Assembly: GCF_048627035.1 (NCBI RefSeq)
Contig: NZ_CP184478.1
DNA: 40,000 nucleotides
Origin: Pseudomonas sp. ABY48
GTDB taxonomy: Bacteria > Pseudomonadota > Gammaproteobacteria > Pseudomonadales > Pseudomonadaceae
Direction: 5' to 3' (one strand)
Shown here piece after piece: positions 12,875 through 29,046 of the stretch. The position numbers and the translations under genes were made by a program. Numbering within the stretch: the first letter of the stretch is position 1; each line of letters starts with the position of its first letter. Under the pieces are notes generated by a model. The model ran no database searches, was not told the DNA's origin, and saw nothing but the letters and a program-made list of their open reading frames with translations.

Positions 12875-12884
12875 GGGTGGCTCA

Positions 12885-15800
12885 GTGCTAATTTCAGAAA
12901 AGGCGCTCCACCTTCTGGATTCCATAGAAATTATAGAGATGCGATCTCTTGAGTGGGGGTTTACCGATGGCTCACTAAGTGAGGATGAGGCGTTAGCCCT
13001 TGCCAACGTTTCCGCGGACGGTGGAAATGGTGACGAACTGCTTGAGGCGTTGATCGAAGGCCGCCTTATTTACGAGTTCAGAACCAGCAGCGCCGAAATC
13101 CGATACCGCTCTCGTTTCGCGGAGATGGTGCGACTGCTTGCGGCATCAAGGCAATTATTTCCCAATAAGCCTTGGCAAGGTGCTCCCCACCTTGTAGCCG
13201 ATTTTCGAGTTGATCGCCGTCGTCGTAGGTTTCCAAAGCGGGATCTGGATCCGGCATACGTATTGGGTGCCAACTCGATGACTCTCGGCAAAACAGACTT
13301 GCGTAAAGATCTATGGCGGGCTCTGACTAACCGTCCAAATATGAAACTTGCCGCCTTCCAACAGCGTGCTGCTGTACGCCTCATTGATGGCATAGAAGAC
13401 AGTGGGACTATAGTCACGGCTGGGACAGGCAGCGGGAAAACTATTGCTTTTTATCTACCGGCACTTATACGCGTTGGCGAAGCTATCGCTAAAGATAACT
13501 GGGTCAAGGCAATTTCGATTTATCCAAGGGTCGAGTTGCTAAAAGACCAGTTTGCAGAGGTCTATCGTCTAGCGAGAACTATGGACACAGCGCTGGCCGC
13601 TCATGGACGGCGGCCGCTATTGATAGGCACGCTTTTCAGAGCAACACCTCGAAATGCCAAACGCGAAGATCTCATCGCCCATGGCTGGAACCGTAAAGGC
13701 GGAGATTTTGTTTGCCCCTGGCTTCGCTGTCCTGCCTGTGATGGCGAACTCATTTGGCGCGAAACAGACCTCCGTGCGCAGCGTGAGGTTCTTCAGTGCT
13801 CACAACACAATTGTGCGTGTTACGTGCCGGATAGCCATATTGTCTTGACCCGTTCGCGACTTCAAAAAGAACCCCCTGACGTGCTCTTCACGACCACGGA
13901 AATCCTTAATCAGAGACTCTCCGATCAATGGACTCGAAGGCTCTTTGGCGTCGATATGCCAATGGGGAAGAAGCCACTCTTCGCACTCCTTGATGAAGTA
14001 CATACATACGAAGGTGCAACGGGCGCGCAGGCCGCGCTTACTTTGCGCCGGTGGCGTCACCTTTTAAGTGGGCCGATTTGTTGGGCGGGGCTTTCGGCAA
14101 CATTAGGAGAGGCCGCCAGTTTTTTTGCGGATCTCACTGGGGCGAACCCGGACAAGGTTGTAGAGATTACCCCGGCGGGTGACGAAATTGAGGAGCAGGG
14201 TGCTGAATATCAGATAATTCTGCGCGGCGATCCTGCGTCACGTTCGTCTCTGCTTTCGACTACGATCCAAACCTCAATGCTCCTGCCACGTTTGCTTGAT
14301 CCGCCTGGGTTGCCCGTATCGAAGGGGTCATTTGGGTGCCGCGCGTTTCTCTTTACCGACGACCTAGACGTAACAAATCGTCTATATGACGACCTCCGCG
14401 ACGCCGAGGCGTACACCATATATGGCAAACCTGATCAGCAACGCGATCCGCTGGCGGACCTACGTAGTGCAGGACAGGATGCGCAAATCCGTGACATCGA
14501 GGGGCAGCGTTGGCGCGTCTGTGAGGAAATTGGTCATCCGCTGAATCGACGTCTTATCGTGGGGCGGACAACATCTCAGGATGCGGGGGTCAATCAGGCC
14601 TCGAACATCATAGTGGCTACCGCTGCGCTTGAGGTCGGATTCAATGACCCGCAGGTTGGTGCAGTAATACAGCACAAAGCCCCAAGGGGGATGGCCTCTT
14701 TCCTCCAGCGCAAGGGGCGAGCAGGACGCAACCGTGAGATGCGTCCTGTTACGGTGACAGTTCTTTCAGATTATGGCCGCGACCGAATAGCCTATCAGTC
14801 CTATGAGCATCTCTTTGATCCCAGCCTTACAGCTCAACATTTGCCGGTTCAAAATCCCTATATTTTGCGCATTCAAGCGGTCTACGCGCTGATTGATTGG
14901 CTAGCGAAGCGCACCACTACAAACGAAAAGGTGTGGTTCTGGGATTTGCTGAGTCGACCAGTGCTTGGCGCATCCAGTTCTGCTGGAAAAATCCTCAGCG
15001 CAGTGAAAACCCAACTCAGCAAAATAATTCAGGGAGATCCGTCGAGTCTGGCAGATCTCCGCGCGTACCTCATTGCTTCCCTAGGTATTGATGAGGAAAC
15101 TGTAGACTCGTTGCTTTGGGAAGCGCCCCGGTCGCTACTGCTTGAAGTTGTTCCCACTCTAGTGCGCCGAGTATTTCGCCAATGGCAACTCGCGTTTCCG
15201 ACCAATTACGGCGATCGCGATATACAAGTTGATTTTCACCCGCTGCCAGATTTCATCCCGCGAAGTTTGTTCAGTGATCTCAGCCTACCAGAAGTTCAAA
15301 TCATTGTTCCGCCCGCTGATGTCAATCATGCTGAACGCATTGAGACGATGCCAATCGTTCAAGCGCTCAACCAACTCGTTCCAGGTCGCGTGAGTCGCCG
15401 CTTTGCTTTCGAACGCGGTGCCTTAGCGCATTGGGTTCCCGTTGATATCGCCCACCCTGAGCAGGAGCGACGAATCAGTGATTATGCTGAAGAACACGAA
15501 TTTGTTGGGACTTTCCGGGGGAGTTACAACGATGACGGCAACGCGGAGTCCTTTCTGGTTTTCCGGCCTTGGGTTGTTCGACTTGAAAAAGTAGCACGCA
15601 AGGACGCCTTGCCAAGTAGCAATGGACGACTTACTTGGCATACAGATATTGAACCCAATGGTGAGGCACTCACCGTTGGCATTCCGTCTCGTACCCAGTG
15701 GCGTACCTATATTAAGACGGCTTGCTTTTATCTGCATCGTTATCGAGCCAGCGTCAGCGTTCGGCGGTTTGCACCGACGGCACACGCCAATGTTCGGACT

Positions 15801-17447
15801 TTGAAGGATGATTTTCCTGTCACAATTCATTTCCGAAGTGATGGAGGTCTTCCAGCCGCACTAGGGTTCGAGTTGGAGGTTGATGGTTTCTACCTTGATT
15901 TCGATTTGCCGACCGCTAGCGAACTGGCGAGGGTTGAACTCCCGCAACATCTTGCTGCAAGCAGTACGCTGGCTTTTTTACGCGACACATTTTTGACTGA
16001 CGCCGATTTGCCGACTGATCTCAACAGCTTTCAACGCGATTGGCTTTTTCAAGTCCTGCAATCCGCTCTTTTTGCTGACGCGGCGGATACCGATCGTACG
16101 ATTGAGGAGTCCGCATCTGATCTGCTGAGTGAAGATCGTATGGAGGTCGCACTTTGTGAGGTAATGGACGATCTCTTTGGAGGAGTGCCACTCAATCCTG
16201 ACGGCGATTACACAGTCGATGATGTAGATGACATCTACGAGGTGACTAGTTGCGAAGGGGGCGAGGAGGTTGGATCTTCATCACCCCCAACGGCTACTAG
16301 GCTGCGGCAGACGCTTGCGCTTCATCTTTCCCGAGCGATCGTCCGGGATCGATTGCGCGTATTGGCCGGAGAGTTTACGAATCCTGATCCAGAGCGCCAC
16401 AGTCGCTGGCTTCGACGTACCATCGTTGAGACCTTGGGCGAGGCTCTTCTTCAAGCCTGCGCAGTGGCGGCGCCGAAACATGCTGTCGTTGATACCCTTC
16501 TCGTAGACGTACGGGATGACTGCACCAGCAATGTTGCGCGGATATGGATAAGCGAAGCGACACTCGGCGGAGCAGGGGTCCTACAGGCGTTCGCCGAACG
16601 CTTCACAGCTGAACCACGCGTTTTTTTCAGCGCCTTGGAGGCGGCGCTCACCCCAACCGATATCGAATTAGTGGATGGTGGTCTACGCCAAATTCTTGAT
16701 CTTTCCCAATCCGATCCGGACATCGGTGAGCAACTCGCTCAATTACGGAGTACCCATTCCCATGGGGAACGGTCGGCGCTTTGGCAATCATTTTCACATG
16801 CTCTTTCGAGTCGTGGGGCTGTTGATCTGAGTCACGCGCTGGCTGTATCGTTCAACTCCCGTTTGCTTAGATCCGGTGCTGGGCCTGCTCTGGACCGCTT
16901 GTTAGTAGATCTTCAAAAATTCTGGGATGATGTAGAGAAACGTTTTCGAGTGACTGTTGGATTGCGTGAGTTTGCTTATGTTTGTAGCAAAAAGCGGAGT
17001 ATCTCCCTCCGTGTACGTAGCTTCCTCGTTCAAACTTTGCCATTAGCCGTAGCTAATAAGGTGACAATCCTCGACGCCGTGATGAGTTTGTTGTGGCCAC
17101 GAGAAGTTGAACTACGTCAGAAGTTGCTCCGCTCTTATAATCCCTACCGGCAAGCGCGAACCACTGATCCGACGTTGATTCGCTATCTGCTACTTACGCG
17201 TACTGTGGTTACGGTGGAACTATCGGATGATGCGTGGCGAGGAAAACTTAACGCAGCATTAGAAACTGATGGTTCGTGTCGTTTGTCTGTAGTAGCTACA
17301 TCGGCAAGCATCATGCGCGAGACACTAGTTAAACTTGTTGCCACCCCTATAGATATTGGTTATCTACAGTTTTATCCAGTTGTTGAAAGATTCGAACGCG
17401 CTGAAGGTAAAATCATGGTGACCGTTTCACTAAGGGAGCAACTCTGA
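12885..17447 (+). CDS. dpdJ: Very large DEAD/DEAH-box (DEVH) SF2 helicase, DpdJ
   Basis: 1520 aa with a GTG start. Motifs: TAGTGSGKTIAFYLPAL (I), LLDEVHTYEG (II), LSATLG (III), ATAALEVGFNDPQVGAVIQHKAP...FLQRKGRAGRN (V-VI). A Cys-rich insert, CPWLRCPAC...CSQHNCAC, lies between motifs I and II. Confidence 0.8.
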   Translation: MLISEKALHLLDSIEIIEMRSLEWGFTDGSLSEDEALALANVSADGGNGDELLEALIEGRLIYEFRTSSAEIRYRSRFAEMVRLLAASRQLFPNKPWQGAPHLVADFRVDRRRRRFPKRDLDPAYVLGANSMTLGKTDLRKDLWRALTNRPNMKLAAFQQRAAVRLIDGIEDSGTIVTAGTGSGKTIAFYLPALIRVGEAIAKDNWVKAISIYPRVELLKDQFAEVYRLARTMDTALAAHGRRPLLIGTLFRATPRNAKREDLIAHGWNRKGGDFVCPWLRCPACDGELIWRETDLRAQREVLQCSQHNCACYVPDSHIVLTRSRLQKEPPDVLFTTTEILNQRLSDQWTRRLFGVDMPMGKKPLFALLDEVHTYEGATGAQAALTLRRWRHLLSGPICWAGLSATLGEAASFFADLTGANPDKVVEITPAGDEIEEQGAEYQIILRGDPASRSSLLSTTIQTSMLLPRLLDPPGLPVSKGSFGCRAFLFTDDLDVTNRLYDDLRDAEAYTIYGKPDQQRDPLADLRSAGQDAQIRDIEGQRWRVCEEIGHPLNRRLIVGRTTSQDAGVNQASNIIVATAALEVGFNDPQVGAVIQHKAPRGMASFLQRKGRAGRNREMRPVTVTVLSDYGRDRIAYQSYEHLFDPSLTAQHLPVQNPYILRIQAVYALIDWLAKRTTTNEKVWFWDLLSRPVLGASSSAGKILSAVKTQLSKIIQGDPSSLADLRAYLIASLGIDEETVDSLLWEAPRSLLLEVVPTLVRRVFRQWQLAFPTNYGDRDIQVDFHPLPDFIPRSLFSDLSLPEVQIIVPPADVNHAERIETMPIVQALNQLVPGRVSRRFAFERGALAHWVPVDIAHPEQERRISDYAEEHEFVGTFRGSYNDDGNAESFLVFRPWVVRLEKVARKDALPSSNGRLTWHTDIEPNGEALTVGIPSRTQWRTYIKTACFYLHRYRASVSVRRFAPTAHANVRTLKDDFPVTIHFRSDGGLPAALGFELEVDGFYLDFDLPTASELARVELPQHLAASSTLAFLRDTFLTDADLPTDLNSFQRDWLFQVLQSALFADAADTDRTIEESASDLLSEDRMEVALCEVMDDLFGGVPLNPDGDYTVDDVDDIYEVTSCEGGEEVGSSSPPTATRLRQTLALHLSRAIVRDRLRVLAGEFTNPDPERHSRWLRRTIVETLGEALLQACAVAAPKHAVVDTLLVDVRDDCTSNVARIWISEATLGGAGVLQAFAERFTAEPRVFFSALEAALTPTDIELVDGGLRQILDLSQSDPDIGEQLAQLRSTHSHGERSALWQSFSHALSSRGAVDLSHALAVSFNSRLLRSGAGPALDRLLVDLQKFWDDVEKRFRVTVGLREFAYVCSKKRSISLRVRSFLVQTLPLAVANKVTILDAVMSLLWPREVELRQKLLRSYNPYRQARTTDPTLIRYLLLTRTVVTVELSDDAWRGKLNAALETDGSCRLSVVATSASIMRETLVKLVATPIDIGYLQFYPVVERFERAEGKIMVTVSLREQL

Positions 17448-17974
17448 TGGTTTTTCCGTCTCGAGACCTTCATGGTCCTGGCCAAGCACGTGCTGTCCGC
17501 GACCTATTCCAAAGTCTATTTTCGGCTGAGCTAATACATCCAAGTCAGACGCTATGGTTCTTCTTTGCATGGATCTCAGACGTAGAGATCATTGATAACT
17601 CGGCTCGTCAATTCTCCGCCCTGGAGCCAGATTGGCCGGCAGCACAGATCAGATTGTCGCAGGTACTGAGGGCGTTACTGAGTCGTGGAGTACAGGTACG
17701 GCTAATAATCCGTGAAGATGGTCATAATGATTACTTTATAGCGCGCCTAAAGGAGTTAAAGTTGCGTTACAGAGATAGTTTGCAATGGGTTATTGAAAAA
17801 AGTTTCCATGCGAAAGGTTTGCTTGGATCCGACTATTTTCTGAGTGGATCGATGAATCTAACTCTAAACGGCATTTCCGTAAACGGTGAGCATCTTGTCT
17901 TGCGAACGGATCCAGCCGCTGTCGCTGAACAATCCATTCAACTTGAATCGCAGTGGGGGGGGCGGTTGGTATGA
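17447..17974 (+). CDS. dpdK: Small phospholipase-D-family (single HKD-like motif) nuclease, DpdK
   Basis: 175 aa. A TGATG junction joins it to dpdJ, with an AGGGAG upstream. It carries an HKD-like motif, SFHAKGLLGSDYFLSGSMNLT. Confidence 0.75.
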   Translation: MVFPSRDLHGPGQARAVRDLFQSLFSAELIHPSQTLWFFFAWISDVEIIDNSARQFSALEPDWPAAQIRLSQVLRALLSRGVQVRLIIREDGHNDYFIARLKELKLRYRDSLQWVIEKSFHAKGLLGSDYFLSGSMNLTLNGISVNGEHLVLRTDPAAVAEQSIQLESQWGGRLV

Positions 17975-20121
17975 TCGGCTTCCATATCGAGGATTCTGCA
18001 AGGTTACATGATGCTATAGTCTCGGCTTCTGGATATGGGAATCTAGTTGATGAGGTTCAAAGTCTGTGTTATCTGGTGGCTCAGTCATTAACGGATCTAG
18101 ATTTTCCTGGAGCTCTTGTTCCAACTTTAACTGTGGATGGCAGTCTGCAAGTCTATGCCGTAACTCGGACAATCACAGAATGGCGAAGGTTAAATCCAAT
18201 CCTCATTGCTTTCAGTGGTCCGACGATCACTTCCTACACTGGTGTGCCAGGAGCGCTTCCGATTGGAGGGGTGATTGAGGATGTTATACGTTCAATCGCC
18301 CCCTCAAATATCGGTATTCTTCGCTTGCCCGCAGATAGTAAAAAACGAGTAGCCGCTCTGCGTGCACTGCAGCGAGCCCGCGAGACTCTTGCGCGCGCAC
18401 CTAGTGCGCAACGCAAGGCTCCGCTACCGACTAGTTGGCTGCTCGCTAGCTTCCAAGACCATTTGAACGTGGGTCGACGTGCTGCTGCTTGGGACACTCT
18501 CAATCGCCTTAGGGATGAACTACGGGTCGATGCGCTTAACCTCAAGTTCCTTGAGGTGCAATTGCTCGCAGCGTTTGAGGATTGGAGCGCGATTCTCAAT
18601 ATGGCGGGGTTTGCGAGTCTCTGTATTGCAAGACGTCCACCTGCTGTTACGACTTTGCTTTTGGAGGCGCTTTATCGTGTCTATATTCAGGAGCACTTTC
18701 TCAGCGGTGACGTCGAAGAAACGCGTAGGTGTTATGCGGAACTGTGCCGAATACACGCTAAATCGATGCTAGTGGTGCCGTACCCCGCCATGTTGACACC
18801 CGGAGGATGGCGAATTTATGCGTTGGAGGCATTGTTATCTTCCGAAAATCATGAGTTGGTCAACGTTGTAATCGAGCAGTCCTTAGTGCTCGGTTGGATC
18901 TCCGAATACCTACCTGGCTCTTCTACAGCAAAAGCCACCGAGGTGTCGCGTGTTTTACAGACGCAACTCAACCACGCCCGCAAAGCACTCACAGAGGTCG
19001 ACTGTGTCAACAGTCTCGATGCTGTTGCAACTGCAATCGCGAGCATTAATCGATTGAGTAGCGCCGAGTTGGCTCAATTGAGTTCTGCTGAACCGTTTCG
19101 AACATTGTTACGCACTGTTTCGGATGTCGGCGGGCTAGGTGGACTGCCTAGTAGTTGGCTGGAGTGGCTAAGAAAGGTTTCGGACCCCGATTTCACTAAT
19201 GCGCTCGAAATTGCACGTCAGGGGAAAGACGAGTGGGTTCTTGATGAAAGTATCGCCGACCCGGTTGCAGTACAGCGTTTTGTTTCGGCTCTGGAGGCAG
19301 TACAGCACGATCAGATAGCAGCTGAGCGAACCGCGAACGCTCTTCCATTCATCGTCGCCTGGCTTCAGCGTGACGCAGTTTTCCCTCGTAGCGAGATGGG
19401 GCCCGTCTACTCCATCCTTCTTACATTATTCGCGATGGGGGCGAGTCGTGGGCGTGGTATCTACGAGTCTAGTCATATTCTCATTCATGGGTTACTAGCA
19501 ATCGGCGTCACAGAGAGCGTTTATCGAGGGTTAATCGCTGATACCGAGGAATTAGCGGGTTCGGGGTTCGGCGTCGAAATGGTCTATTGGTTACTCGAAG
19601 TTATTGAGGACTTTATACGATTCGGTGCCCCAGATGCTAATGCACGGGAAATTTTCCTTCACTGCGTCTTGTCGAAGATTGCTCCAATTTACTCGCGTCT
19701 AAGCAGCCTCCAATGCGCAGCGATCGTACGTCTGGCCGAACAACTAGGATGGCGCCTCGATGATATTGGGGTAAGTAAAGGTAGCGTTGCGCCAGATGAC
19801 TTTTCATCAAAAATGGATGGTCTGCGTATTGGCATCTACACGCTGAACGAGTCATCTAGCCGTCAAGCTAAAGCGGCGTTAGAAGTTGTCTCTCCCAATG
19901 TAATAGTTGACTGCAACGCTGATCATGGTGGTACGGATAAATTACGTTCTCTTGCAAAAAATGCAGATCTTTTTGTGATGACTTCACTCTCCGCAAAGCA
20001 TGCTGCTACAGACTGTATTCGTGAGCATCGAGTTAATCGTCCGCTTCTTTATGCTCAAGGGGCGGGGGTTTCAAGCATACTTCGTGTGATTGAGGATTAC
20101 TTAAAATTGGGTAGCGCTTGA
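17971..20121 (+). CDS. 716-aa helical-repeat protein ending the operon; possible DpdD
   Basis: The start is placed at ATG 17971 (MIGFHIED), which forms an ATGA overlap with the dpdK stop. The N-terminal two-thirds are largely Leu/Ala-rich. The C-terminal ~100 aa (LRIGIYTLNE...ADLFVMTSLSAKHAATDCIREH...) resembles a DUF2325-type domain from memory. DpdD is the only canonical Dpd component not otherwise accounted for. Confidence 0.4.
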   Translation: MIGFHIEDSARLHDAIVSASGYGNLVDEVQSLCYLVAQSLTDLDFPGALVPTLTVDGSLQVYAVTRTITEWRRLNPILIAFSGPTITSYTGVPGALPIGGVIEDVIRSIAPSNIGILRLPADSKKRVAALRALQRARETLARAPSAQRKAPLPTSWLLASFQDHLNVGRRAAAWDTLNRLRDELRVDALNLKFLEVQLLAAFEDWSAILNMAGFASLCIARRPPAVTTLLLEALYRVYIQEHFLSGDVEETRRCYAELCRIHAKSMLVVPYPAMLTPGGWRIYALEALLSSENHELVNVVIEQSLVLGWISEYLPGSSTAKATEVSRVLQTQLNHARKALTEVDCVNSLDAVATAIASINRLSSAELAQLSSAEPFRTLLRTVSDVGGLGGLPSSWLEWLRKVSDPDFTNALEIARQGKDEWVLDESIADPVAVQRFVSALEAVQHDQIAAERTANALPFIVAWLQRDAVFPRSEMGPVYSILLTLFAMGASRGRGIYESSHILIHGLLAIGVTESVYRGLIADTEELAGSGFGVEMVYWLLEVIEDFIRFGAPDANAREIFLHCVLSKIAPIYSRLSSLQCAAIVRLAEQLGWRLDDIGVSKGSVAPDDFSSKMDGLRIGIYTLNESSSRQAKAALEVVSPNVIVDCNADHGGTDKLRSLAKNADLFVMTSLSAKHAATDCIREHRVNRPLLYAQGAGVSSILRVIEDYLKLGSA

Positions 20122-20260: not shown

Positions 20261-20896
20261 TTACGGGATCATTAGTATTTTATGTTGCTGTAGTCCTAAT
20301 TTCCATTTGGGGTGAGATTTACAGTACTCTATCGTCAATTCTATGTTTTTTTGAATGTTTGGACCATCCATGGGTTGTAAATAGTGGTGCTCAAAAAGGA
20401 GTTGCTCAAATTTTTCTGGAGGTGCTTCAGTCTGTGGGTATACAAGCTTAAGTTCATTGCCGTGAGTGATTTTTAGTTGAGCGCCTGATTTTGGACTGAC
20501 ACAAATCCAGTCGATTCCAAAAGGCGGTTCGATCGTACCATTGGTCTCTACGGCAATGGAAAAGTTTAGGTTATGCAGGGCGAGTACCAACGCGTTGTCG
20601 ACTTGAAGTAAAGGTTCTCCGCCGGTCAATACCACATACTTATGATTCTGGTGGGATATTGGCCAAAACGAATCAATAGCATGAGCGAGAGCTTCAGCAT
20701 TTTTAAATTTATCCCCACCATCCCCATCTGTTCCGACGAAGTCCGTGTCACAGAATGTACAGATCGCGCTAGCCCTGTCCTGTTCTCGTCCCGACCAGAG
20801 GTTACATCCTGAAAATCGGCAGAATACCGCAGGTCGACCCGCTTGGTTGCCTTCCCCTTGAAGGGTGTAAAACATTTCTTTGATGCTGTAAGTCAT
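20261..20896 (-). CDS. queE: 7-carboxy-7-deazaguanine synthase QueE (radical SAM)
   Basis: 211 aa. It has TLQGEGNQAGRPAVFCRFSGCNLWSG and a cluster motif C-x14-C-x2-C (CNLWSGREQDRASAICTFC), as in E. coli-type QueE. Confidence 0.9.
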   Translation of the reverse strand: MTYSIKEMFYTLQGEGNQAGRPAVFCRFSGCNLWSGREQDRASAICTFCDTDFVGTDGDGGDKFKNAEALAHAIDSFWPISHQNHKYVVLTGGEPLLQVDNALVLALHNLNFSIAVETNGTIEPPFGIDWICVSPKSGAQLKITHGNELKLVYPQTEAPPEKFEQLLFEHHYLQPMDGPNIQKNIELTIEYCKSHPKWKLGLQQHKILMIP

Positions 20897-20959
20897 TTTG
20901 TTTACTCGTCTGATTCAAATAGGTGGCGAGTGCACTGATCCGCCACCGCTGAACCATCA

Positions 20960-21661
20960 TCAATCTCGTTCTTGAATGTACTGCTCATATCCAGTTTTGC
21001 GCAGTTCACAAGCTGGGCACGTTCCACACCCGTAGCCCCATTCATGTTTCTGCTGTCGGGTTCCGAGGTAGCAGGTGTGGGACTCTTCTTGGATCAGGCT
21101 GACAAAGTCTCGATTACCTAGATCTTCCGCCAAACGCCAGGTCTGCGCTTTGTTAAGCCACATCAAGGGCGTTTCAATGATCACCGGAGCGTCCATCCCG
21201 AGGCTCAAGGCCACCTGGGTGGCTTTGAGGGTGTTGTCCCGGCAGTCTGGGTAGCCTGAGTAGTCTGTTTCGCACATTCCCCCGACCAGCACTGTGAGGT
21301 CCCGTCGGTAGGCAATAGTGGCTGCGAACGTCAAGAACAGCAGATTTCTCCCGGGTACAAACGTATTGGGAAGTCCATTCTTTTCAAACTCTATAGTTTT
21401 CTCAGCGGTCATCGCCGTATCGCTGATCTGGCCGAGTAACTTGAGGTCAAGCACGTGGTCCTCACCGAGTCGCTTGGTCCAGTTCGGAAATCTGTTACGT
21501 ACCTCCTGCAAGATATTCAGCCGACATTCGAGCTCGATTCGATGCCTCTGGCCATAATCAAAGCCAATGGTCTCGACGTGCTCGTAACGTTCCAGCGCCC
21601 AGGCAAGGCAGGTGGTTGAATCTTGTCCGCCTGAAAAAAGAACTAAGGCTTTGGTGTGCAT
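20960..21661 (-). CDS. queC: 7-cyano-7-deazaguanine (preQ0) synthase QueC
   Basis: 233 aa. It has the PP-loop [11 protein letters not shown] and a C-terminal zinc-Cys cluster, CYLG...[22 protein letters not shown] lies upstream of the ATG. Confidence 0.92.
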
Positions 21662-21688
21662 ATTGCTCTCCTCGGGACTGGGTCTGAT

Positions 21689-22744
21689 TTAGCGCCGTTT
21701 CAGTTCTTGCTTGAGTTTTTCGGTCAGATACTTAGTGAGCAATCCGATATCAGTGGGCGTGTTCTGGATACCATTCCAGGGGCGGCGGTCGGTTTCAGAA
21801 ATGTGCCAATCACCACTTGTCCATGCTGTATGAGGTTTCAAAAGTTTTAGACCTTTGATAAAGCCTTCCTTGCTGGTTGTGCCTTGATCGGAGTAAAGCA
21901 ACTCCATAACGAAGCTCAAAGACACCAGGCCCGCCCCGTGTTTCAAACGTGAATTCCTGGGTGCTAGTCCTTCCCATTCCGATTTGAAAACTACACGCAC
22001 TGCATGGAAGAAGTTATTGATAAGTTCGATGCTGCGCCCCTCAAAGTCATCAAATTTCATGAAGCTACGAATTGCGCCATCATTCGCAGAGTTCATCACG
22101 AACTTCTGCATCGCCATGTCGCTTAGTACTCCTCTAGGATTCGTATGTTGTTTGATCTCGCCAAATAGAGAGGAGTTAGGCAGAAAATTCAACAAATCAA
22201 TAATACGAGCAGCAAATTTACGACTTGTGAACCGTTCTGGCAGGCCGTCAACAGTCGGTAAAAGTTCATAGATTAGCGATTTTGGCAGCGGCCTCGTATT
22301 GTTGACGAGCACAAACTGCTGTCGCAGTTCGTTGTAGTCTTTACAAATCAATGCAGATACAAATACCTGGAATCCAGGCTTTTCCATCGTCGCAAGGGCG
22401 CTGAGTCGTTGTTGGCCATCGACCACAAAGCCTGGTTTTGATTCGGTAGCATCAATAATGATTTCTACAATACCCTCACCAAGGTCTTTGATCGTGACTT
22501 CATCGAGAAAAGCCAGGATAATTGCGTTGGGGAGCAATGCATCGTCGCGCTGAAGATAGTCGCGAATATCTCTGATGTGCGACGCGACTTGATGGCGTTG
22601 AAAGCCTTTGAGGTGGCCTTCTTCATCGCGGCCGACTCTCTCAATTTCAGAGAAATCTAAAATTTCATTTGGAGTGGCCGCAAACGAAAATACATCATGC
22701 CCGGAGGCCTGTTGGGCGCGCACACCCTTAAATCGATAGATCAT
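21689..22744 (-). CDS. DGQHR/DndB/ParB-like family protein, paralogue of DpdB (351 aa)
   Basis: Motifs: KGFQR..V..HIRDIRDYL, PNAIILAF, FVVDGQQRLSAL, QFVLVNNTRPLPKSLIYELLP, SRLKHGAG, AWTSGDW...WNGIQNTPTDI. It is colinear over its full length with the 24036..25157 and 26272..27327 products. Its ATGA start overlaps the dpdA stop. Confidence 0.8.
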   Translation of the reverse strand: MIYRFKGVRAQQASGHDVFSFAATPNEILDFSEIERVGRDEEGHLKGFQRHQVASHIRDIRDYLQRDDALLPNAIILAFLDEVTIKDLGEGIVEIIIDATESKPGFVVDGQQRLSALATMEKPGFQVFVSALICKDYNELRQQFVLVNNTRPLPKSLIYELLPTVDGLPERFTSRKFAARIIDLLNFLPNSSLFGEIKQHTNPRGVLSDMAMQKFVMNSANDGAIRSFMKFDDFEGRSIELINNFFHAVRVVFKSEWEGLAPRNSRLKHGAGLVSLSFVMELLYSDQGTTSKEGFIKGLKLLKPHTAWTSGDWHISETDRRPWNGIQNTPTDIGLLTKYLTEKLKQELKRR

Positions 22745-24039
22745 TGTTTCGAAAGTTCCAGAGTTTTCTGAAGGTGGCGGTGGTACACGCCTAAGTTATG
22801 AAATCCACGTCTTTTGTTTCGATTGCTGGCTCGAAAGATAATAGTTTCGATACCCGCTGACTGACAAATCGAACATTGGCATTTTTGCCACGGTTTATCT
22901 CTCAGCGTGGGTGAGATTAGTCGGACATGCTTGGCGATTTCTTTTTCCATTTCTATTGGTGACAATATCGTGCCGGATAGAGTCAGTCGGAGATAGTCTA
23001 CTAGTACGGCTAAGGTAGAATCAAAGTCGAGAAGATTTTTATCGTAGTCGCGGATCGCTAGCAGCGCCGCTTTTTCTTTGATTTGTAACTCTTCCGCGCT
23101 CAGAGTGCCTTTTTTAATTCCTTGCATCAGGCGTGGATTTTCAATTGCCTGAGGAATACGGATGGCAGTGTAATAATCCAGTTTGGTTGTATTGTTGTCC
23201 ATGTAATAATTACACTTCGCATCTTTAAATGCGCGTATAAGGGGGGAGGTTGAGTCAAAACTGGTAATGCCATATCCAGTGAATTCATGGATGTTCTCAG
23301 CTTTGGCGAAACCCAGCAGATGAATATTTGTCTCGGGCTTAAGGATGGCTCGAAGTTCTTTTAGAACCTCATGAATTTGATCGACTTTCAAAGGTACTAG
23401 ACCTCCGATCGCCAAGTAGCGATAACCCATGTCTTCGAGTTGTTTTGCAGCGTTCGCCATGCTTTGGGGAGACCAACCCTGTACCGCTCCAAGAGGTTCG
23501 AAAGGCCATTCCGCCTCCTTCACTAAACGCAGAAACTCTTGCGCATTTTTGAGCGTAATTTCGTACCGAAACAGCACATCTTCCGACTGGCTCAGCGCTG
23601 GAGGATTGCTGGAGTCGCAGTTGAATATGATGTGGTCCGGCGAGCAACCGTGGGTGAATCCCGCATCTGAGTAGAACTCTACTACTTCGCCGGGGCTATA
23701 CGCAGGGGTAGGGTGCTCTACATAGGCGAAAGCCCCGCAGTCACCTAGGACCATCGTATCTTTGAACTGAATGCCATCGAGTCGTAGAAATTTGCGCGCG
23801 CCTTCTCTGAGGAAGCGCTGCTGCTCGGAAGTCGAGTACCGAACCTTTGAATTAGCGACGCCATTTGCAGGTCGCACTGCGCTCATCGAGACCAAGAGCC
23901 CATCATAAGGGACGGGGGTCATCATTTCGTGCGCATACTGGTCATCCCAGTATCTCTTCCGGCCCGGCGCATTTCGATCGTTGATGAAATCGTAGTCCGG
24001 GTCTACGTAGTCTTGGGTGTCGGCGTATAAAAATTTCAT
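22741..24039 (-). CDS. dpdA: tRNA-guanine-transglycosylase-like DNA transglycosylase DpdA
   Basis: 432 aa. It has a TGT-like substrate/Asp motif VLGDCGAFAY and a TGT-type zinc site, CQCSIC...FHNL (CxCxxC...H). It is flanked by DGQHR genes and by queC/queE. Confidence 0.8.
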   Translation of the reverse strand: MKFLYADTQDYVDPDYDFINDRNAPGRKRYWDDQYAHEMMTPVPYDGLLVSMSAVRPANGVANSKVRYSTSEQQRFLREGARKFLRLDGIQFKDTMVLGDCGAFAYVEHPTPAYSPGEVVEFYSDAGFTHGCSPDHIIFNCDSSNPPALSQSEDVLFRYEITLKNAQEFLRLVKEAEWPFEPLGAVQGWSPQSMANAAKQLEDMGYRYLAIGGLVPLKVDQIHEVLKELRAILKPETNIHLLGFAKAENIHEFTGYGITSFDSTSPLIRAFKDAKCNYYMDNNTTKLDYYTAIRIPQAIENPRLMQGIKKGTLSAEELQIKEKAALLAIRDYDKNLLDFDSTLAVLVDYLRLTLSGTILSPIEMEKEIAKHVRLISPTLRDKPWQKCQCSICQSAGIETIIFRASNRNKRRGFHNLGVYHRHLQKTLELSKQ

Positions 24040-25157
24040 TGGTGAGCGCTGGTCATATAGAGGCGGATCAAGGTTTCTTGCAGCGCCTTGATATCTTGAG
24101 GGGTGCTTTGGATTTCATTCCACTGGACATTAATCATCGGCCATTGACCTGTTGTCCATGCGCAGTAAGGGGCTACTCTGGCCAGTTCTTGTAGCACGGC
24201 TTCGTAGGTTTCGCGCTGACCACCGATTTTGGCGTAGATCCGATCCATAAGCACTCCCATGGCGATGATCCCCGCTGAGTGCATGAGTCGACTGCTCTTG
24301 GATTCAAGTGCCCACGCCTCTGGAAACGTATCACGCACTGCCCGCCAGAAGGTCGTCAGCAGGTTGTACATGGACTCAACGTTCGCCGCTCCGTCGGTGC
24401 TGGAGGTGTAGGGGGCCAACGCCCCCAACGGATTACTGATGCTATTGCGGATCATCGTTATTACAGCGGTGTCAGTGATCACTGCTTTGCTATTTTGCTC
24501 GGACGACCGCTTTATGAGTTTGTGGAAAGGGGAGTTGGGATCGCGGCTAAGAAGCCCGCACAACTCAGCTGGTGCTTTGCGAGCACTCAGTTCGCGGGGC
24601 AAAAGGATGCTGCCTGTCTCCGGCAGTAGTTCGTTGATCAGTCGAGTGGGCAAGGGTTTGGCCTTGTTGACCAAAATAAATTGCTCGCGCTGGGTGGTCA
24701 GGCTGTCGGATACAAAACCGATCACTGGCACAGGAAGATCCGAATTGGCCGCTTTCGCCAACGCCAATGAGCGCTGTTGCCCGTCCACGATCCAGGCAGA
24801 CCTCATTCCTTCCTCCCTGATAGGTATCGTCAGCGTACCCGCTTGCGAAAGCCCCGCGTCGCCTGTCGGCTTGCTTCCGCGTGCTGCAACAAAACGCAGG
24901 TCAGGAGACAGCGCTAAGATAATTGCATTGGGAAAAAGTACATTTCCCTGATTGAGGTACTCAGTGATCCCTTTGACATGACTCTTAATCTCGGGGCGCT
25001 GAAAACCCTTGAGGGGACTGCTGTCTTCCCGCGACAGGCGGCTGATGTCGGCAATTCGGACCAGGTCAGATCCCCTGATGAATAATGCATACACATCAAG
25101 GTTGTCGCCTTGCGTGGTGCGTAGTGCACGCACCACAATCGCATCTTCGCTCGTCAT
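24036..25157 (-). CDS. dpdB: DGQHR domain (ParB-like) protein DpdB
   Basis: The start is placed at ATG 25157 (MTSEDAIVV), which forms an ATGA overlap with the upstream gene. The ORF-track start 25226 would overlap that gene by 73 nt. Motifs: KGFQRPEIKSHV, PNAIILAL, IVDGQQRSLAL, QFILVNKAKPLP. Its stop forms an ATGA overlap with the dpdA start. Confidence 0.75.
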   Translation of the reverse strand: MTSEDAIVVRALRTTQGDNLDVYALFIRGSDLVRIADISRLSREDSSPLKGFQRPEIKSHVKGITEYLNQGNVLFPNAIILALSPDLRFVAARGSKPTGDAGLSQAGTLTIPIREEGMRSAWIVDGQQRSLALAKAANSDLPVPVIGFVSDSLTTQREQFILVNKAKPLPTRLINELLPETGSILLPRELSARKAPAELCGLLSRDPNSPFHKLIKRSSEQNSKAVITDTAVITMIRNSISNPLGALAPYTSSTDGAANVESMYNLLTTFWRAVRDTFPEAWALESKSSRLMHSAGIIAMGVLMDRIYAKIGGQRETYEAVLQELARVAPYCAWTTGQWPMINVQWNEIQSTPQDIKALQETLIRLYMTSAHQ

Positions 25158-26125
25158 GCTTTGCTCTCTATGCTGTCTTGACCTTTGATGTCCTGCCAGA
25201 TCCTCCGAAAGCGCGATTGCTCGCACGACACCAGGGCGTCGTCCCTTAAGTAGCGTAACAATCGGGTGGAACTGCCTTGGTAGTCAGCCCACACACACTC
25301 AAGCATGTAGGCAATTTCACTGTCCGATGCGCGCCGCCGGATGGTCGTTTTTGCTAGGGATAAAAGATCCATCGCCGCGCTGACGCTCTTTCGAGCGATC
25401 TCAACAGGAGCACTCGACAGTTCAAGAATCTCAATGAAATGACGCAGGGCTCTCTGAGGGAAATCGTTGCGAGTGCCTGGTAGTGTTGAGGTTTCAAGGC
25501 GTTCGTCATAGGGCATCGCTATGCGTCGTAAATGGCTGGGAAGCATCTCGATGCCTGGGCGCGAAGTGAATATTCTGATCTTGTCGATCTGCGTGCCCCT
25601 GATTTTTCCAAGGTCTTCGCCTATCAACTGGACATAGTTTGAAGAGAGGGCAATGAGCACCAAGTCGATGTCGGGTTGGCTGACGAGGTCCGCTAGGGCG
25701 CTTCCCTTTGATTGGGTGACATTCACGGCTTCCCACCAATCTGATGCGCGCGCACCCAATTTTTCGAGACGTGGGATGATAGAATTCGGATCCTGAGCCA
25801 CCGTCAGGTTGTACGGCGGACATCTCCGATCGCCTTCAATCAACCCTAAGCCGGTCGACGCAAACATTAGCTTCGCGTCCAACTTCGTTGCTACGCGCCT
25901 CGCGTCAGAAACACTTCTGCCCACGTAAAGTGAAGATGCCATCAGAGTGGTGGGACGTTCGTCTATTTGCCCCTTCCACGCCTTTGCCATGGCTGCAATC
26001 GATGAATAACACTCGTCGTTCAGCACCACCGGCGGCAGGCCGTCGAGACGTTTTCGATTGGTGCAGTTGGTGATTATCACGGTTCTCATGGGAAAACTGT
26101 AGGCCTGTTTTGACGAGTGTTGCAT
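25154..26125 (-). CDS. dpdC: Protein in the DpdC position (proposed preQ0-DNA to 7-amido-7-deazaguanine-DNA converting enzyme)
   Basis: 323-aa ORF and first gene of the minus-strand operon, translationally coupled to dpdB. I cannot verify any catalytic motif by eye. The alternative start ATG 26089 (MRTVIITNCTNRKR) is equally possible, and neither start has a clear SD. Confidence 0.5.
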   Translation of the reverse strand: MQHSSKQAYSFPMRTVIITNCTNRKRLDGLPPVVLNDECYSSIAAMAKAWKGQIDERPTTLMASSLYVGRSVSDARRVATKLDAKLMFASTGLGLIEGDRRCPPYNLTVAQDPNSIIPRLEKLGARASDWWEAVNVTQSKGSALADLVSQPDIDLVLIALSSNYVQLIGEDLGKIRGTQIDKIRIFTSRPGIEMLPSHLRRIAMPYDERLETSTLPGTRNDFPQRALRHFIEILELSSAPVEIARKSVSAAMDLLSLAKTTIRRRASDSEIAYMLECVWADYQGSSTRLLRYLRDDALVSCEQSRFRRIWQDIKGQDSIESKA

Positions 26126-26201
26126 TTATCTGAGGCTGATAATTTACCATTTAATAACTGTGTGGGCCAATGCGCGTAGGCTGGTTTTTATGCGATAGGG
26201 T

Positions 26202-26210
26202 TGGTATAAG
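26202..26210 (+). promoter_or_regulatory. Candidate extended -10 (tggtataag) in the dpdC / DGQHR-paralogue divergent intergenic region
   Basis: It matches TGnTATAAT at 8 of 9 positions, about 60 nt upstream of the proposed TTG start at 26272. This would place ATG 26170 upstream of the promoter. Confidence 0.25.
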
Positions 26211-26271
26211 AGCCTCAATACTGCTGCTACCCCTCTTTCTTGGGGGGGCGTTCGATGAAGGAAGAGACTCA

Positions 26272-27327
26272 TTGCTTAAGTTCAGCGCAATCAAGGCGTT
26301 ACAGAGCCAAACCCACCAAGTGGTATCGTTTGCGGCTACCGTTGAGCAGATTTTGGCGATCGCTAGCATCGACCGAGTCAAGCGTGATGATCGTGGCGCC
26401 CTTCATGGCTTTCAGCGGCCACAGGTGTCCAAGCACATACGAGAGATCCGCGACTACCTCTCCCGTCCCGATGCGGTAATGCCCAATGCTGTGGTGTTAG
26501 CGTTTACCAGTGGAGTCCGGGTGGTGGAAGGAAATGGAGCCTATGCAGAAATTGAGGTGGATATTTCATCCGGCCCTCCTGGGTTCGTTGTGGATGGTCA
26601 GCAGCGCCTATCTGCGTTAGCTGGGCTCGAGGGGAGTTCGTTCCAGTTACTGGTGTCTGCTCTTGTGTGTGAAAATCAGGAAGAGCTTCGCCGGCAATTC
26701 ATTCTCGTCAACAACACCAGTCCATTACCGAAGTCGCTGGTATATGAACTGCTCCCTTCTGTCAGCGGCCTTCCATTCAGAATGACTTCCCGCGCCCGCG
26801 CAGCCCGCATCGTGGAAATGCTGAATTATGACGATCGATCTTCTTTGCAAGGACAGATTAAGCAGCATACCAACCCTTCAGGGGTCATCGGTGATACGTC
26901 GCTCCAGAAACTGGTAATGAATTCCTTATCTGACGGTTACTGTCGGGAGGTGATTGAGTTGTCGGGAGGTGAGGATCGGTGTTTCTTGGCCATCAGTGAG
27001 TTTTTCCAGGCGGTCCAGGAGGTGTTTGGAAATGCTTGGCATGGTCACACCCCTAAAAGTTCTCGTCTCGTCCATAGCGCGGGGATTATTTCCATGGGGT
27101 TCGTTATGGAGCAGTTGTGTGCTACAGGAGCGCCACTGGCCCCAGTATTCAAGTTAGGCCTTAGAAAGCTACAAGGATATACAGCTTGGACGCTCGATTC
27201 GGGAGAGTGGTCCTTTAAAACAGGCAATCGGCCATGGAATGGAGTTCAGAATTTACATGGTGATATTCATCTTTTGACTGATTATTTGACCCGGGTGGTT
27301 CGAAGTTCGGAACTCGTACCTAGCTAA
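26272..27327 (+). CDS. Second DGQHR/DndB/ParB-like paralogue (351 aa), divergent from dpdC
   Basis: A TTG start at 26272 is proposed (GAAGGAAGAG SD-like 5-10 nt upstream). It gives exactly 351 aa, the same length as the 21689..22744 product, and the two align from residue 2 (LKFSAIKALQ vs IYRFKGVRAQ). The ORF-track ATG 26170 would add 34 residues with no counterpart. Motifs: HGFQRPQVSKHIREIRDYL, FVVDGQQRLSAL, QFILVNNTSPLPKSLVYELLP. Confidence 0.75.
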   Translation: MLKFSAIKALQSQTHQVVSFAATVEQILAIASIDRVKRDDRGALHGFQRPQVSKHIREIRDYLSRPDAVMPNAVVLAFTSGVRVVEGNGAYAEIEVDISSGPPGFVVDGQQRLSALAGLEGSSFQLLVSALVCENQEELRRQFILVNNTSPLPKSLVYELLPSVSGLPFRMTSRARAARIVEMLNYDDRSSLQGQIKQHTNPSGVIGDTSLQKLVMNSLSDGYCREVIELSGGEDRCFLAISEFFQAVQEVFGNAWHGHTPKSSRLVHSAGIISMGFVMEQLCATGAPLAPVFKLGLRKLQGYTAWTLDSGEWSFKTGNRPWNGVQNLHGDIHLLTDYLTRVVRSSELVPS

Positions 27328-27359
27328 CGGGTGCACATTACTAATATTTAGGAGGCATT

Positions 27360-27899
27360 ATGACTACTTTGGTTTCCTCGGATCTGTCTCCAGCCCTGGC
27401 CAGTGACGCCAGTGTAAAAGAGTTCTCTGAAGTCATTCTTCATCTATCCATGGCTTTTCAGGAGGCATTGAGGAGGCTCGCAGGGCAGGACGAAGCTTTC
27501 CCTTCGGAAGGGTATGGCATGCTGACTGAAGCCTACGGTTTGCGGACGCGTGCGAATATTCTCTACCTGACGCCATCTACCCATGTGGTGCAGGAATTAA
27601 ATTTTTCCCAAACTGCTATGTTGGGGAAATTCGAAGAAATATTGAATTGTTTGAGTGATGTAACCGATTTGCACACAGTTAACGCCAGTGGCCGTTACCG
27701 CAGCAATGGATATACACACAAATCGAAATGCGGAAGCCACCAATCCCCCAGGGCTCGCCTCACGCCAGATGAGCCGATCCCACCGTCGATACAAGCGCCG
27801 ACTCCAGAAAACGAAAAGCAGTCTGCTTCGAAACCAGGGTCGACTCGAAGAACGCCAAATGGCTGCCATTACGCTCCACGTGCAACAAGGCATCACTGA
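27360..27899 (+). CDS. Hypothetical protein; the reading frame runs across the island/core junction
   Basis: A strong SD (taggaggcatt-ATG) precedes it. The first ~110 codons lie in island-type sequence. The rest reads through the repeat head (27690-27723) and the antisense 3' end of syrC, so the C-terminus is probably not native. Confidence 0.4.
   Translation: MTTLVSSDLSPALASDASVKEFSEVILHLSMAFQEALRRLAGQDEAFPSEGYGMLTEAYGLRTRANILYLTPSTHVVQELNFSQTAMLGKFEEILNCLSDVTDLHTVNASGRYRSNGYTHKSKCGSHQSPRARLTPDEPIPPSIQAPTPENEKQSASKPGSTRRTPNGCHYAPRATRHH
27690..27723 (-). repeat. Truncated head of the intergenic repeat family (inverted relative to the 1474 copy)
   Basis: The reverse complement tttgtgtgtatatccattgctgcggtaacggcc matches the head at 1474-1509 and the palindrome arm plus loop at 32082-32127. 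The expected body (gcttagggttccgctc...) is replaced by island sequence. Confidence 0.6.
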
Positions 27900-28986: not shown

Positions 28987-29046
28987 GGATTGGGGACTCC
29001 TGTCAGGCACGTTGCGCATGCCAACTGTCATGTGGCATTGAAAAGG

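What the first reader, a model, noticed from the sequence alone, without database searches (positions are those of the whole stretch)
26170..27327. Second DGQHR paralogue, divergently transcribed, same 351-aa length if it starts at TTG 26272
Roughly half of the aligned residues are identical by eye to the 21689..22744 product. With a TTG start at 26272 (SD-like GAAGGAAGAG upstream) both proteins are exactly 351 aa. The 34 N-terminal residues implied by ATG 26170 have no counterpart in the paralogue.

The two genes flank dpdC-dpdB-dpdA in inverted orientation. They differ in base composition: sampled lines of this copy look clearly more GC-rich. This argues against a recent duplication.

Established knowledge: the related DndB protein acts as a transcriptional regulator of the dnd operon. 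A divergently placed paralogue sharing the promoter region with dpdC is therefore a plausible regulator. That is an inference.
Basis: partly seen in the sequence, partly recalled or inferred. Interest (0 to 1): 0.7.

Follow-up and report, generated by a model that had tools for sequence, protein, structure and literature searches.

The report
Third DpdB-family gene in dpd island
The flagged gene is a real, well-conserved extra copy of DpdB, the DNA-binding ATPase partner of the enzyme that puts 7-deazaguanine into DNA. It starts at the proposed TTG, is already annotated that way in RefSeq, and whether it regulates the system is still untested.

Summary
The product of 26272..27327 (+) is 52% identical over 346 aa (E 6e-126) to the product of 21689..22744. 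Both are 351 aa, and GC is 51.6% versus 46.7%.

The TTG 26272 start is strongly supported. Four close orthologous loci have no in-frame start upstream. Two distant loci have GTG at that position, with a stop 3 or 6 codons upstream. RefSeq holds exactly this 351-aa protein as "DpdB" (Pseudomonas sp. ABY48).

It is the third DpdB-family gene in the island. All three exceed the NCBIfam DpdB cutoff. It is not a recent duplicate of its neighbour: the two are exclusive sisters in 0 of 100 bootstraps. Its closest non-Pseudomonas relative with a known position sits just downstream of dpdA in another dpd cluster.

It keeps every universally conserved family residue and evolves at dN/dS of about 0.05. 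In relatives it heads an operon, dpdB-orfX-queD, which is cut off here at about 27684.

The regulator idea is neither shown nor refuted. The shared control region carries conserved AACTG repeats. The same repeats occur in eight two-DpdB clusters that lack this third copy, and are absent from the one single-DpdB cluster type examined.

This is a variant of a known system, of moderate interest.

The parts
26272..27327 (+). dpdB_R: 351-aa DpdB-family (DGQHR/DGQQR, ParB/Srx-fold) protein with a TTG start. This is the finding.
   Evidence: NCBIfam DpdB NF041060 353 bits (cutoff 300), TIGR03187, Pfam DndB; PADLOC DpdB; start evidence; dN/dS 0.04-0.05; AF2 pLDDT 86.6.
26170..26271 (+). Spurious N-terminal extension. 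It is 5' leader DNA that is in frame only in this strain.
   Evidence: ATG lost in L005 and L007; indels not divisible by 3 in the G-run 26240..26249; no upstream start in four orthologous loci; no counterpart in homologues.
26257..26266 (+). Shine-Dalgarno-like GAAGGAAGAG, 5 nt before the TTG.
   Evidence: Conserved (GAAGGAAG) in eight loci; coordinates.
26090..26271 (.). Shared divergent control region between dpdC (real start probably M13 at 26089) and dpdB_R.
   Evidence: Alignments A1 and A3; the PADLOC DpdC match begins at residue 13; the M1 ATG is CAG in L007, L009 and L019.
26094..26100 (+). AACTG repeat 1 (AAACTGT). On the dpdC strand it reads ACAGTTTTCCC-ATG, abutting the dpdC start.
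   Evidence: the same placement next to the dpdC ATG is seen in L017, L013 and L028.
26121..26129 (-). AACTG repeat 2 (TGCATTTAT), degenerate here. It is TGCAGTTAT in L007, L009 and L019, where it forms an inverted repeat with repeat 3 (9-10 nt arms, one mismatch, gap 23-26).
26154..26161 (+). AACTG repeat 3 (ATAACTGT).
26202..26210 (+). TGGTATAAG, read by eye as an extended -10-like element for dpdB_R (inference only).
   Evidence: Conserved in eight close loci; the sigma-70 scan itself found no site.
27360..27684 (+). orfX: first ~108 codons of a conserved 145-aa helical-bundle protein that follows dpdB_R. It is truncated here, and the ORF tail to 27899 is unrelated sequence.
   Evidence: AF2 pLDDT 91 with no fold match; dN/dS 0.11; distant relatives lie next to DpdB genes.
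27684..27688 (.). Right end of island homology. Relatives continue with the orfX 3' end and queD; GC rises from about 0.50 (27001-28000) to 0.61 (28001-29000).
21689..22744 (-). dpdB_L: 351-aa paralogue, the last DpdB gene of the dpdC-dpdB-dpdA-dpdB operon, joined to dpdA by an ATGA overlap.
22741..24039 (-). dpdA (DNA transglycosylase).
   Evidence: NF041059 556 bits.
24036..25157 (-). dpdB_M: middle DpdB, probable start ATG 25157 (373 aa), ATGA overlap with the dpdC stop.
   Evidence: NF041060 465 bits; 375-aa calls in L009 and L019.
25154..26089 (-). dpdC.
   Evidence: PADLOC DpdC PDLC02815 294 bits from residue 13; weak DUF6884 hit.
20261..21661 (-). queE and queC, the preQ0-synthesis genes at the end of the leftward operon.

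Best explanation
SHOWN. 26272..27327 is a functional gene for a 351-aa DpdB-family ParB/Srx-fold protein that starts at TTG. It belongs to a 'DpdB2' sub-lineage whose members normally sit just downstream of dpdA in dpd clusters carrying two DpdB genes (dpdC-dpdB-dpdA-dpdB2-que). In Pseudomonas this extra copy heads its own divergent operon, dpdB_R-orfX-queD. The window has lost the end of orfX and all of queD. It is an old paralogue or xenologue of its neighbour dpdB_L, not a recent duplicate, and it is under purifying selection as strong as that on dpdA. INFERRED (about 0.4). It works as characterised DpdB does: as an ATP-hydrolysing, DNA-binding dimer in the modification arm that assists DpdA in inserting preQ0 into DNA. 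On this reading it is a second DpdB2 isoform, possibly altering target choice or capacity, and is co-expressed with precursor supply (queD). It is not a dedicated transcription factor. A DndB-like autoregulatory side-role at the AACTG repeats remains possible.
For: Family membership: NF041060 353 bits against a cutoff of 300, plus TIGR03187, Pfam DndB and PADLOC DpdB. It keeps all 52 columns conserved at 95% or more across the R, L, M and other DpdB groups, including GFQR, DGQQR, QFxLxN, PLP, ELLP and SRLxHxAG. Only three R-specific changes occur at positions fixed in its nearest relatives. dN/dS is 0.04-0.05, equal to dpdB_L, dpdB_M and dpdA. The AF2 model is confident (pLDDT 86.6) and matches ParB-N, DndB-like and GmrSD-N folds. 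The layout queE-queC-dpdB_L-dpdA-dpdB_M-dpdC / dpdB_R-orfX is kept in 8 Pseudomonas species genomes, P. aeruginosa and a metagenome contig. queD follows orfX in L002 and L001/L004. Phylogeny: R and L are never exclusive sisters (0 of 100 bootstraps), and R groups with genes that occupy the position after dpdA in other clusters in 93 of 100. orfX relatives also accompany DpdB genes elsewhere. Characterised DpdB is an ATPase required for DpdA activity (PMC10164549).
Against: No experiment bears on this copy. Clusters with only two DpdB genes, and the characterised single-DpdB system, function without it, so it is not needed for basic chemistry. Characterised DpdB is only 36-37% identical and equidistant from all three paralogues, so transferring its function is an extrapolation. 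A solitary homologue in a Magnetococcales prophage-like region, and one beside type I-E cas genes in Variovorax, both lack dpdA. This shows the sub-lineage can act without DpdA. The divergent position and the conserved repeats in the shared control region fit a regulator equally well.
Confidence: 0.5

Rival explanations
1. DndB-like transcriptional (auto)regulator. The protein binds the shared 180-bp control region, perhaps at the AACTG repeats and modulated by ATP. It sets expression of the dpdC-dpdB-dpdA-dpdB-queCE operon and of its own operon.
For: Divergent placement with a shared control region. Three AACTG-core repeats 27-34 bp apart are the main conserved blocks of an otherwise divergent intergenic region; two form an inverted repeat with 9-10 nt arms and one mismatch in L007, L009 and L019. 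The module encodes no HTH regulator, and DGQHR proteins are its most obvious DNA binders. DndB, a DGQHR protein, binds two palindromes in the dnd promoter (PMC4507180).
Against: The same repeats are enriched upstream of dpdC in five non-Pseudomonas clusters (11 hits against 1.0 expected, P about 1e-8) and in three alphaproteobacterial plasmids. None of these has the third copy. So if a DpdB binds them, it is a paralogue present in all two-DpdB clusters. There are no sequence signs of changed function. The gene is co-operonic with queD. DndB is not divergently encoded.
Confidence: 0.3
2. dpdB_R and orfX form a separate two-gene unit whose job is not DpdA-linked modification of host DNA. Examples would be sensing modification status, or a defence or anti-defence role, by analogy with other ParB/Srx NTPases such as SspE.
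For: The dpdB_R-orfX pair is conserved out to 68% identity in L024, although that contig ends 289 bp upstream, so any dpdC/dpdA there would be unseen. Solitary homologues occur without dpdA in a prophage-like region and next to cas genes. orfX is a confident 5-helix bundle with no known relatives.
Against: In every Pseudomonas locus with enough sequence it sits inside the modification module. orfX relatives also occur at the end of an ordinary dpdA-dpdB2-queC-queD string. No nuclease or effector domain was detected.
Confidence: 0.15
3. A functionless remnant: the 3' end (dpdB2-orfX-queD) of a second dpd module that recombined into the island and is merely carried along.
For: Its nearest relatives sit in the position after dpdA followed by que genes. 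The phylogeny shows a different origin from dpdB_L. The island is mosaic.
Against: dN/dS is 0.04-0.05 over divergences with dS up to 1, the ORF is intact in all loci, and the start codon and SD are conserved.
Confidence: 0.05

Closest known systems
DpdB of the Salmonella Montevideo / E. coli type dpd system (ATPase partner of DpdA; PMC10164549)
   Same: Same family by curated model (NF041060 above cutoff). Same DGQQR motif, same size, same ParB/Srx-type fold prediction, and encoded with dpdA and dpdC in a dpd island.
   Different: Only 36-37% identical, and no closer than the other two paralogues. The characterised system has one DpdB, in the order dpdC-dpdA-dpdB. Here there are three, and this one is divergently transcribed in its own operon.
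DpdB2-type genes downstream of dpdA in two-DpdB dpd clusters (e.g. Rhodomicrobium, Methylomonas, Skermanella, Caulobacter)
   Same: Closest sequence relatives outside Pseudomonas (53-60% identity). Same length, and followed by que genes, sometimes with an orfX-like gene.
   Different: Those genes are co-directional with and coupled to dpdA. This one is an additional copy on the opposite strand, so far seen almost only in Pseudomonas (two cluster members carry Paucimonas and Pseudoalteromonas labels). Extra dpdB copies are counted (n=801) but not analysed in the GATOR-GC survey.
DndB, regulator of the dnd phosphorothioation operon (PMC4507180)
   Same: DGQHR-domain ParB-superfamily protein with a Pfam DndB match. 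It belongs to a DNA-modification island, and there are candidate repeated sites in the promoter region.
   Different: No dnd genes are present. The dnd-associated DGQHR model TIGR04172 scores 31 bits against a cutoff of 450. The repeat sequence differs from TACG-N10-CGTA. DNA binding is untested.

Membership tests
DpdB (NCBIfam NF041060, DGQHR domain-containing protein DpdB) | Full-length match above the curated equivalog cutoff | tested here: met
   353.2 bits against a cutoff of 300, covering model positions 1-352 of 352 from residue 36 of the long ORF; PADLOC DpdB 380 bits.
DpdB (NCBIfam NF041060, DGQHR domain-containing protein DpdB) | DGQ(H/Q)R motif and the other family-invariant residues | tested here: met
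   D108 G109 Q110 Q111 R112 and all 52 columns conserved at 95% or more across the R, L, M and other DpdB groups are retained.
DpdB (NCBIfam NF041060, DGQHR domain-containing protein DpdB) | Encoded in a dpd cluster with dpdA and dpdC | tested here: met
   dpdA lies 2.2 kb away and dpdC is adjacent and divergent. The same layout holds in 11 related loci.
DpdB (NCBIfam NF041060, DGQHR domain-containing protein DpdB) | Orthology to the biochemically characterised DpdB | tested here: not met
   The E. cloacae/E. coli-type DpdB is 36.5% identical to this protein, 37.3% to dpdB_L and 35.8% to dpdB_M. It is equidistant, so this copy is a paralogous sub-lineage.
DpdB (NCBIfam NF041060, DGQHR domain-containing protein DpdB) | ATPase activity required for DpdA-catalysed preQ0 insertion | not testable with these tools
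   Needs purified protein. The precedent is PMC10164549.
ParB/Srx-fold NTPase superfamily | N-terminal ParB-like fold | tested here: inconclusive
DndB (dnd-operon regulator) | Pfam DndB domain (PF14072) | tested here: met
   42.4 bits against a gathering score of 29.1, spanning residues 40-374.
DndB (dnd-operon regulator) | dnd-associated DGQHR protein, linked to dndCDE | tested here: not met
   TIGR04172 scores 30.7 bits against a cutoff of 450. No dnd genes were seen among the annotated ORFs of the island.
DndB (dnd-operon regulator) | Sequence-specific binding to repeats in its own promoter, repressing the operon | not testable with these tools
   Candidate sites were found (26094, 26121, 26154), but they also occur in clusters lacking this gene.

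The most novel reading that the evidence does not exclude
Two-DpdB dpd islands carry their own cis-regulatory code: an array of (A/T)AACTG repeats about 31-35 bp apart upstream of, and abutting, the dpdC start codon. A DpdB2-type ParB/Srx NTPase reads this array in an ATP-dependent, DndB-like way. In Pseudomonas the divergent third copy would be a trans-acting extra reader that couples expression of the modification operon to its own dpdB_R-orfX-queD operon.
Probability: 0.2. Interest if true: 0.6.

Novelty: new variant of a known kind. Interest (0 to 1): 0.42.

Why it matters
The only biochemically characterised Dpd modification machinery has a single DpdB. Yet two-DpdB clusters are common: 9 of 16 matching plasmid records here, and 801 extra dpdB copies across 2,335 islands in a published survey. 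Pseudomonas adds a third copy. How the work is divided among DpdB paralogues (ATPase partner, target selector, regulator) is unknown. This locus offers three diverged paralogues in one island, each deletable. It also offers a defined 180-bp control region with conserved repeats that can be tested directly. If one paralogue proves to be a DndB-like regulator, that would link regulatory logic between the phosphorothioate and 7-deazaguanine DNA-modification systems. If it instead changes DpdA targeting, it would explain how modification specificity diversifies.

Tried and rejected
- **Promoter scan:** the sigma-70 scan of 25900..27500 found no site, and the two terminator-like hits are at chance level.
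- **RNA families:** Rfam gave nothing at gathering thresholds over the whole window, and only noise (E above 2) in 25950..26450. A preQ1 riboswitch or other known leader is therefore not supported.
- **Leader folding:** the dpdB_R leader folds no better than shuffles (z -0.44), so the anti-SD pairing I noticed (CTCTTTCTT/AAGGAAGAG) is not supported.
- **Repeat finder:** default settings found no inverted repeat in the window's intergenic region. The inverted repeat is degenerate here and clear only in L007, L009 and L019.
- **Motif enrichment:** WAACTGY is not enriched across the whole window (17 against 15 expected). The signal is local to the control region.
- **DpdA target site:** I considered whether AACTG is the DpdA target. 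The published partial site CxGCxG fits some copies (CTGCAG) but not the Pseudomonas ones, so this was dropped.
- **Solved structures:** a PDB sequence search gave no hit.
- **orfX:** no Pfam, PADLOC or PDB-fold match.
- **Other dead ends:** P0067 was not on record. The first bootstrap script timed out. The solitary 'DpdB' genes in Nonomuraea and Euzebya are not in dpd clusters, so they were unusable as negative controls.

Full report
**Setting.** The window is a Pseudomonas dpd (7-deazaguanine DNA modification/restriction) island downstream of rpoS (361..1368).
- On the + strand lie dpdE, F, G, H, I (weak), J, K and D, spanning 2543..20121.
- On the - strand lie queE, queC, a 351-aa DGQHR gene (dpdB_L, 21689..22744), dpdA, a second DGQHR gene (dpdB_M) and dpdC.
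- The finding, here called dpdB_R, is the next gene, on the + strand.
- GC is about 0.50 in the island and about 0.60-0.67 (mostly above 0.60) from 28 kb onward.

**Observation.** BLASTP of the 26170..27327 product against dpdB_L gives 52% identity over 346 aa (E 6e-126). The alignment begins at residue 35, which is the TTG at 26272. Identity to dpdB_M is 31%, and dpdB_L to dpdB_M is 32%. All three exceed the curated NCBIfam DpdB cutoff of 300 bits (353, 375 and 465 bits). So the paralogy is full-length, and this is the third family member in the island. GC is 51.6% for dpdB_R and 46.7% for dpdB_L.

**Start codon.** Several lines of evidence agree on TTG 26272.
- Homologues begin MLKF, MLRF or MRF at the position of TTG 26272. 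Where longer N-termini were called, they differ in length and sequence.
- In a nine-locus alignment the TTG and the GAAGGAAG Shine-Dalgarno are conserved, and the codon is GTG in P. duriflava.
- ATG 26170 is lost in two loci, and the G-run at 26240..26249 carries indels of 1, 2 and 3 nt.
- L001, L003, L004 and L006 have no in-frame start codon upstream of the TTG. In L007 and L009 an in-frame stop lies 3 and 6 codons upstream.
- The exact 351-aa sequence is RefSeq WP_420232073.1, "DpdB", from Pseudomonas sp. ABY48. The 385-aa form is not in the collection.

The TTG start is therefore as secure as comparative evidence allows. The same logic suggests two other corrections. dpdC probably starts at its 13th codon (26089), because the PADLOC match begins there and the first ATG is not conserved. 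dpdB_M probably starts at ATG 25157, overlapping the dpdC stop as ATGA. ATGA overlaps also join dpdB_M to dpdA and dpdA to dpdB_L.

**Conservation and operon.** Eight Pseudomonas species genomes, P. aeruginosa and one metagenome contig keep the same order: queE-queC-dpdB_L-dpdA-dpdB_M-dpdC on one strand and dpdB_R plus a small ORF on the other.
- The small ORF (orfX) is a 145-aa protein of unknown family. By the word-index search it appears in named Pseudomonas genomes and unnamed metagenome contigs.
- orfX belongs to a small family of about 35 clusters at 50% identity.
- It is predicted as a confident five-helix bundle with no fold match.
- In L002, L001 and L004 it is followed by queD.
- In the window, homology to relatives stops at about 27684, inside orfX. 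The end of orfX and queD are therefore missing, and the ORF tail to 27899 is unrelated sequence.
- More distant orfX relatives again lie beside DpdB-family genes. One directly follows a dpdB_R-like gene (68.6% identical). Another sits at the end of a dpdA-dpdB-queC-queD string.

**Origin.**
- Homologues at 53-60% identity from Rhodomicrobium, Methylomonas and a metagenome-assembled genome contig (L015) occupy the position just downstream of dpdA, in clusters of the form dpdC-dpdB-dpdA-dpdB(-que genes). Relatives of dpdB_L do the same.
- In a neighbour-joining tree rooted on the dpdB_M clade, dpdB_R orthologues are monophyletic in 100 of 100 bootstraps. The dpdB_L clade is monophyletic in 97 of 100.
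- The two are never exclusive sisters (0 of 100). dpdB_R groups with the clade represented by L015 to the exclusion of dpdB_L in 93 of 100.
- dpdB_R is 60% identical to P0035 but 51% to its neighbour dpdB_L.
- A tblastn search of plasmids with dpdB_M found nine records with two DpdB genes, seven with one, and none with three.

So the third copy is an old paralogue, or a gene captured from another dpd lineage, plausibly together with orfX and queD. So far it has been seen almost only in Pseudomonas; two members of its 90% cluster carry Paucimonas and Pseudoalteromonas labels.

**Is it functional, and has it changed?**
- Pairwise dN/dS is 0.04-0.05, the same as dpdB_L, dpdB_M and dpdA. For orfX it is 0.11.
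- dpdB_R keeps all 52 columns conserved at 95% or more across the R, L, M and other DpdB groups, including GFQR, DGQQR, QFxLxN, PLP, ELLP and SRLxHxAG.
- It differs from residues fixed in its nearest relatives at only three positions: L70M, F127L and G269S.
- The AF2 model (pLDDT 86.6) matches ParB-N, DndB-like and GmrSD-N folds, though only weakly.

Nothing in the sequence indicates loss of NTPase function or gain of a new domain.

**The regulator idea.** The shared control region (26090..26271) is poorly conserved between distant loci, except for copies of an AACTG core.
- In the window these are AAACTGT at 26094, TGCATTTAT at 26121 (TGCAGTTAT in distant loci) and ATAACTGT at 26154.
- In L007, L009 and L019 the last two form an inverted repeat with 9-10 nt arms, one mismatch and a 23-26 nt gap.
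- The first copy abuts the dpdC start codon, where no Shine-Dalgarno is evident.

This resembles an operator, and DndB does bind two palindromes in the dnd promoter (PMC4507180). I then tested the motif on independent clusters.
- In five non-Pseudomonas two-DpdB clusters without a third copy, the 230 bp upstream of dpdC hold 11 matches against 1.0 expected (Poisson P about 1e-8).
- Three alphaproteobacterial plasmid clusters also carry the motif, again with a copy next to the dpdC ATG in Caulobacter.
- The canonical single-DpdB cluster (dpdC-dpdA-dpdB in E. coli GE3 and E. cloacae pPOL9A) has none in 300 bp.

The repeats are therefore a property of the two-DpdB class, not of the third copy. 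It could be either resident DpdB, DpdA or DpdC. dpdB_R, being of the DpdB2 type, might share that activity, but this cannot be decided computationally.

**What is known.** The characterised S. Montevideo DpdB is a homodimeric ATPase required for DpdA-catalysed preQ0 insertion (PMC10164549). It is about 36% identical to, and equidistant from, all three paralogues here. The GATOR-GC preprint reports that dpdB has the most additional copies (n=801) among 2,335 unique dpd islands, but does not analyse them. RefSeq already names this gene DpdB.

**Verdict.**
- The gene, its start and its ancient paralogy are confirmed.
- My best reading, at about 0.4, is that it acts like DpdB: an ATP-driven DNA-binding accessory of the modification arm, co-expressed with queD.
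- The DndB-like regulator reading is a live rival at about 0.3.
- A separate function with orfX is at about 0.15, and a functionless remnant is disfavoured by selection.
- This is a variant of a known system. The gene itself is already annotated. The three-paralogue architecture, the dpdB_R-orfX-queD operon and the AACTG array are not described in the papers I could search.

Noticed in passing
window 26090..26165; also L011 6581/6626, L013 6601/6635/6670, L017 1809/1842, L018 2698/2733/2764, L027 2953/2987, L028 2822/2864/3021: An array of (A/T)AACTG repeats, mostly about 31-35 bp apart, lies upstream of dpdC in two-DpdB dpd clusters from many hosts, often with one copy directly before the dpdC start codon. 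It is absent from the single-DpdB E. coli/E. cloacae cluster. I found no description of it in the papers searched.
   Followed up: partly
window 2543..20121 versus 20960..27684, compared with L001-L008: The island is mosaic. The modification module (queC to orfX) is mostly 91-99% identical at protein level across six to seven Pseudomonas species genomes, except dpdC (71-77% in two of them). The restriction genes dpdD, dpdJ and dpdK of the same loci are only 23-54% identical. queE drops to about 80%, which suggests a recombination joint between queC and queE.
   Followed up: partly
window 27360..27899: The ORF after the finding is a conserved 145-aa protein (orfX) truncated at about codon 108, where island homology ends. 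Relatives continue with queD, so this strain's island has lost queD and the orfX C-terminus.
   Followed up: yes
window 25154..26125 and 24036..25226: Two ORF starts are probably too long. dpdC likely starts at its 13th codon (26089). The middle dpdB likely starts at ATG 25157. dpdC, dpdB_M, dpdA and dpdB_L are then all joined by ATGA stop/start overlaps.
   Followed up: yes
L016 8861..9916: A Magnetococcales contig carries a solitary homologue (58% identical to the finding) in a prophage-like region (P22 antirepressor-like, SSB, primase, integrase), with no dpdA among the called genes of the locus.
   Followed up: no
L021 6908..8475: A Variovorax plasmid has a DpdB2-like gene (45-47% identical to the L and R copies) followed by a DUF6884 (DpdC-like) gene, immediately after a type I-E cas operon. 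No dpdA is annotated in the stretch.
   Followed up: no
L011 11711..13800 and L018 401..2427: Other two-DpdB islands carry additional, much more divergent DndB-like genes (388-391 aa, weak Pfam hits). One is paired with an HNH protein divergent from dpdC. The other lies next to a 304-aa gene beside dpdD.
   Followed up: no
window 1866..2200: Transposase-like ORF fragments, judged by eye only to be IS3/IS66-type helix-turn-helix remnants, lie between rpoS and dpdE, near the left end of the island.
   Followed up: no
window 12122..12874: The ORF in the dpdI position scores only 33.6 bits against the DpdI model (cutoff 150), so it is a very divergent DpdI or a different protein.
   Followed up: no
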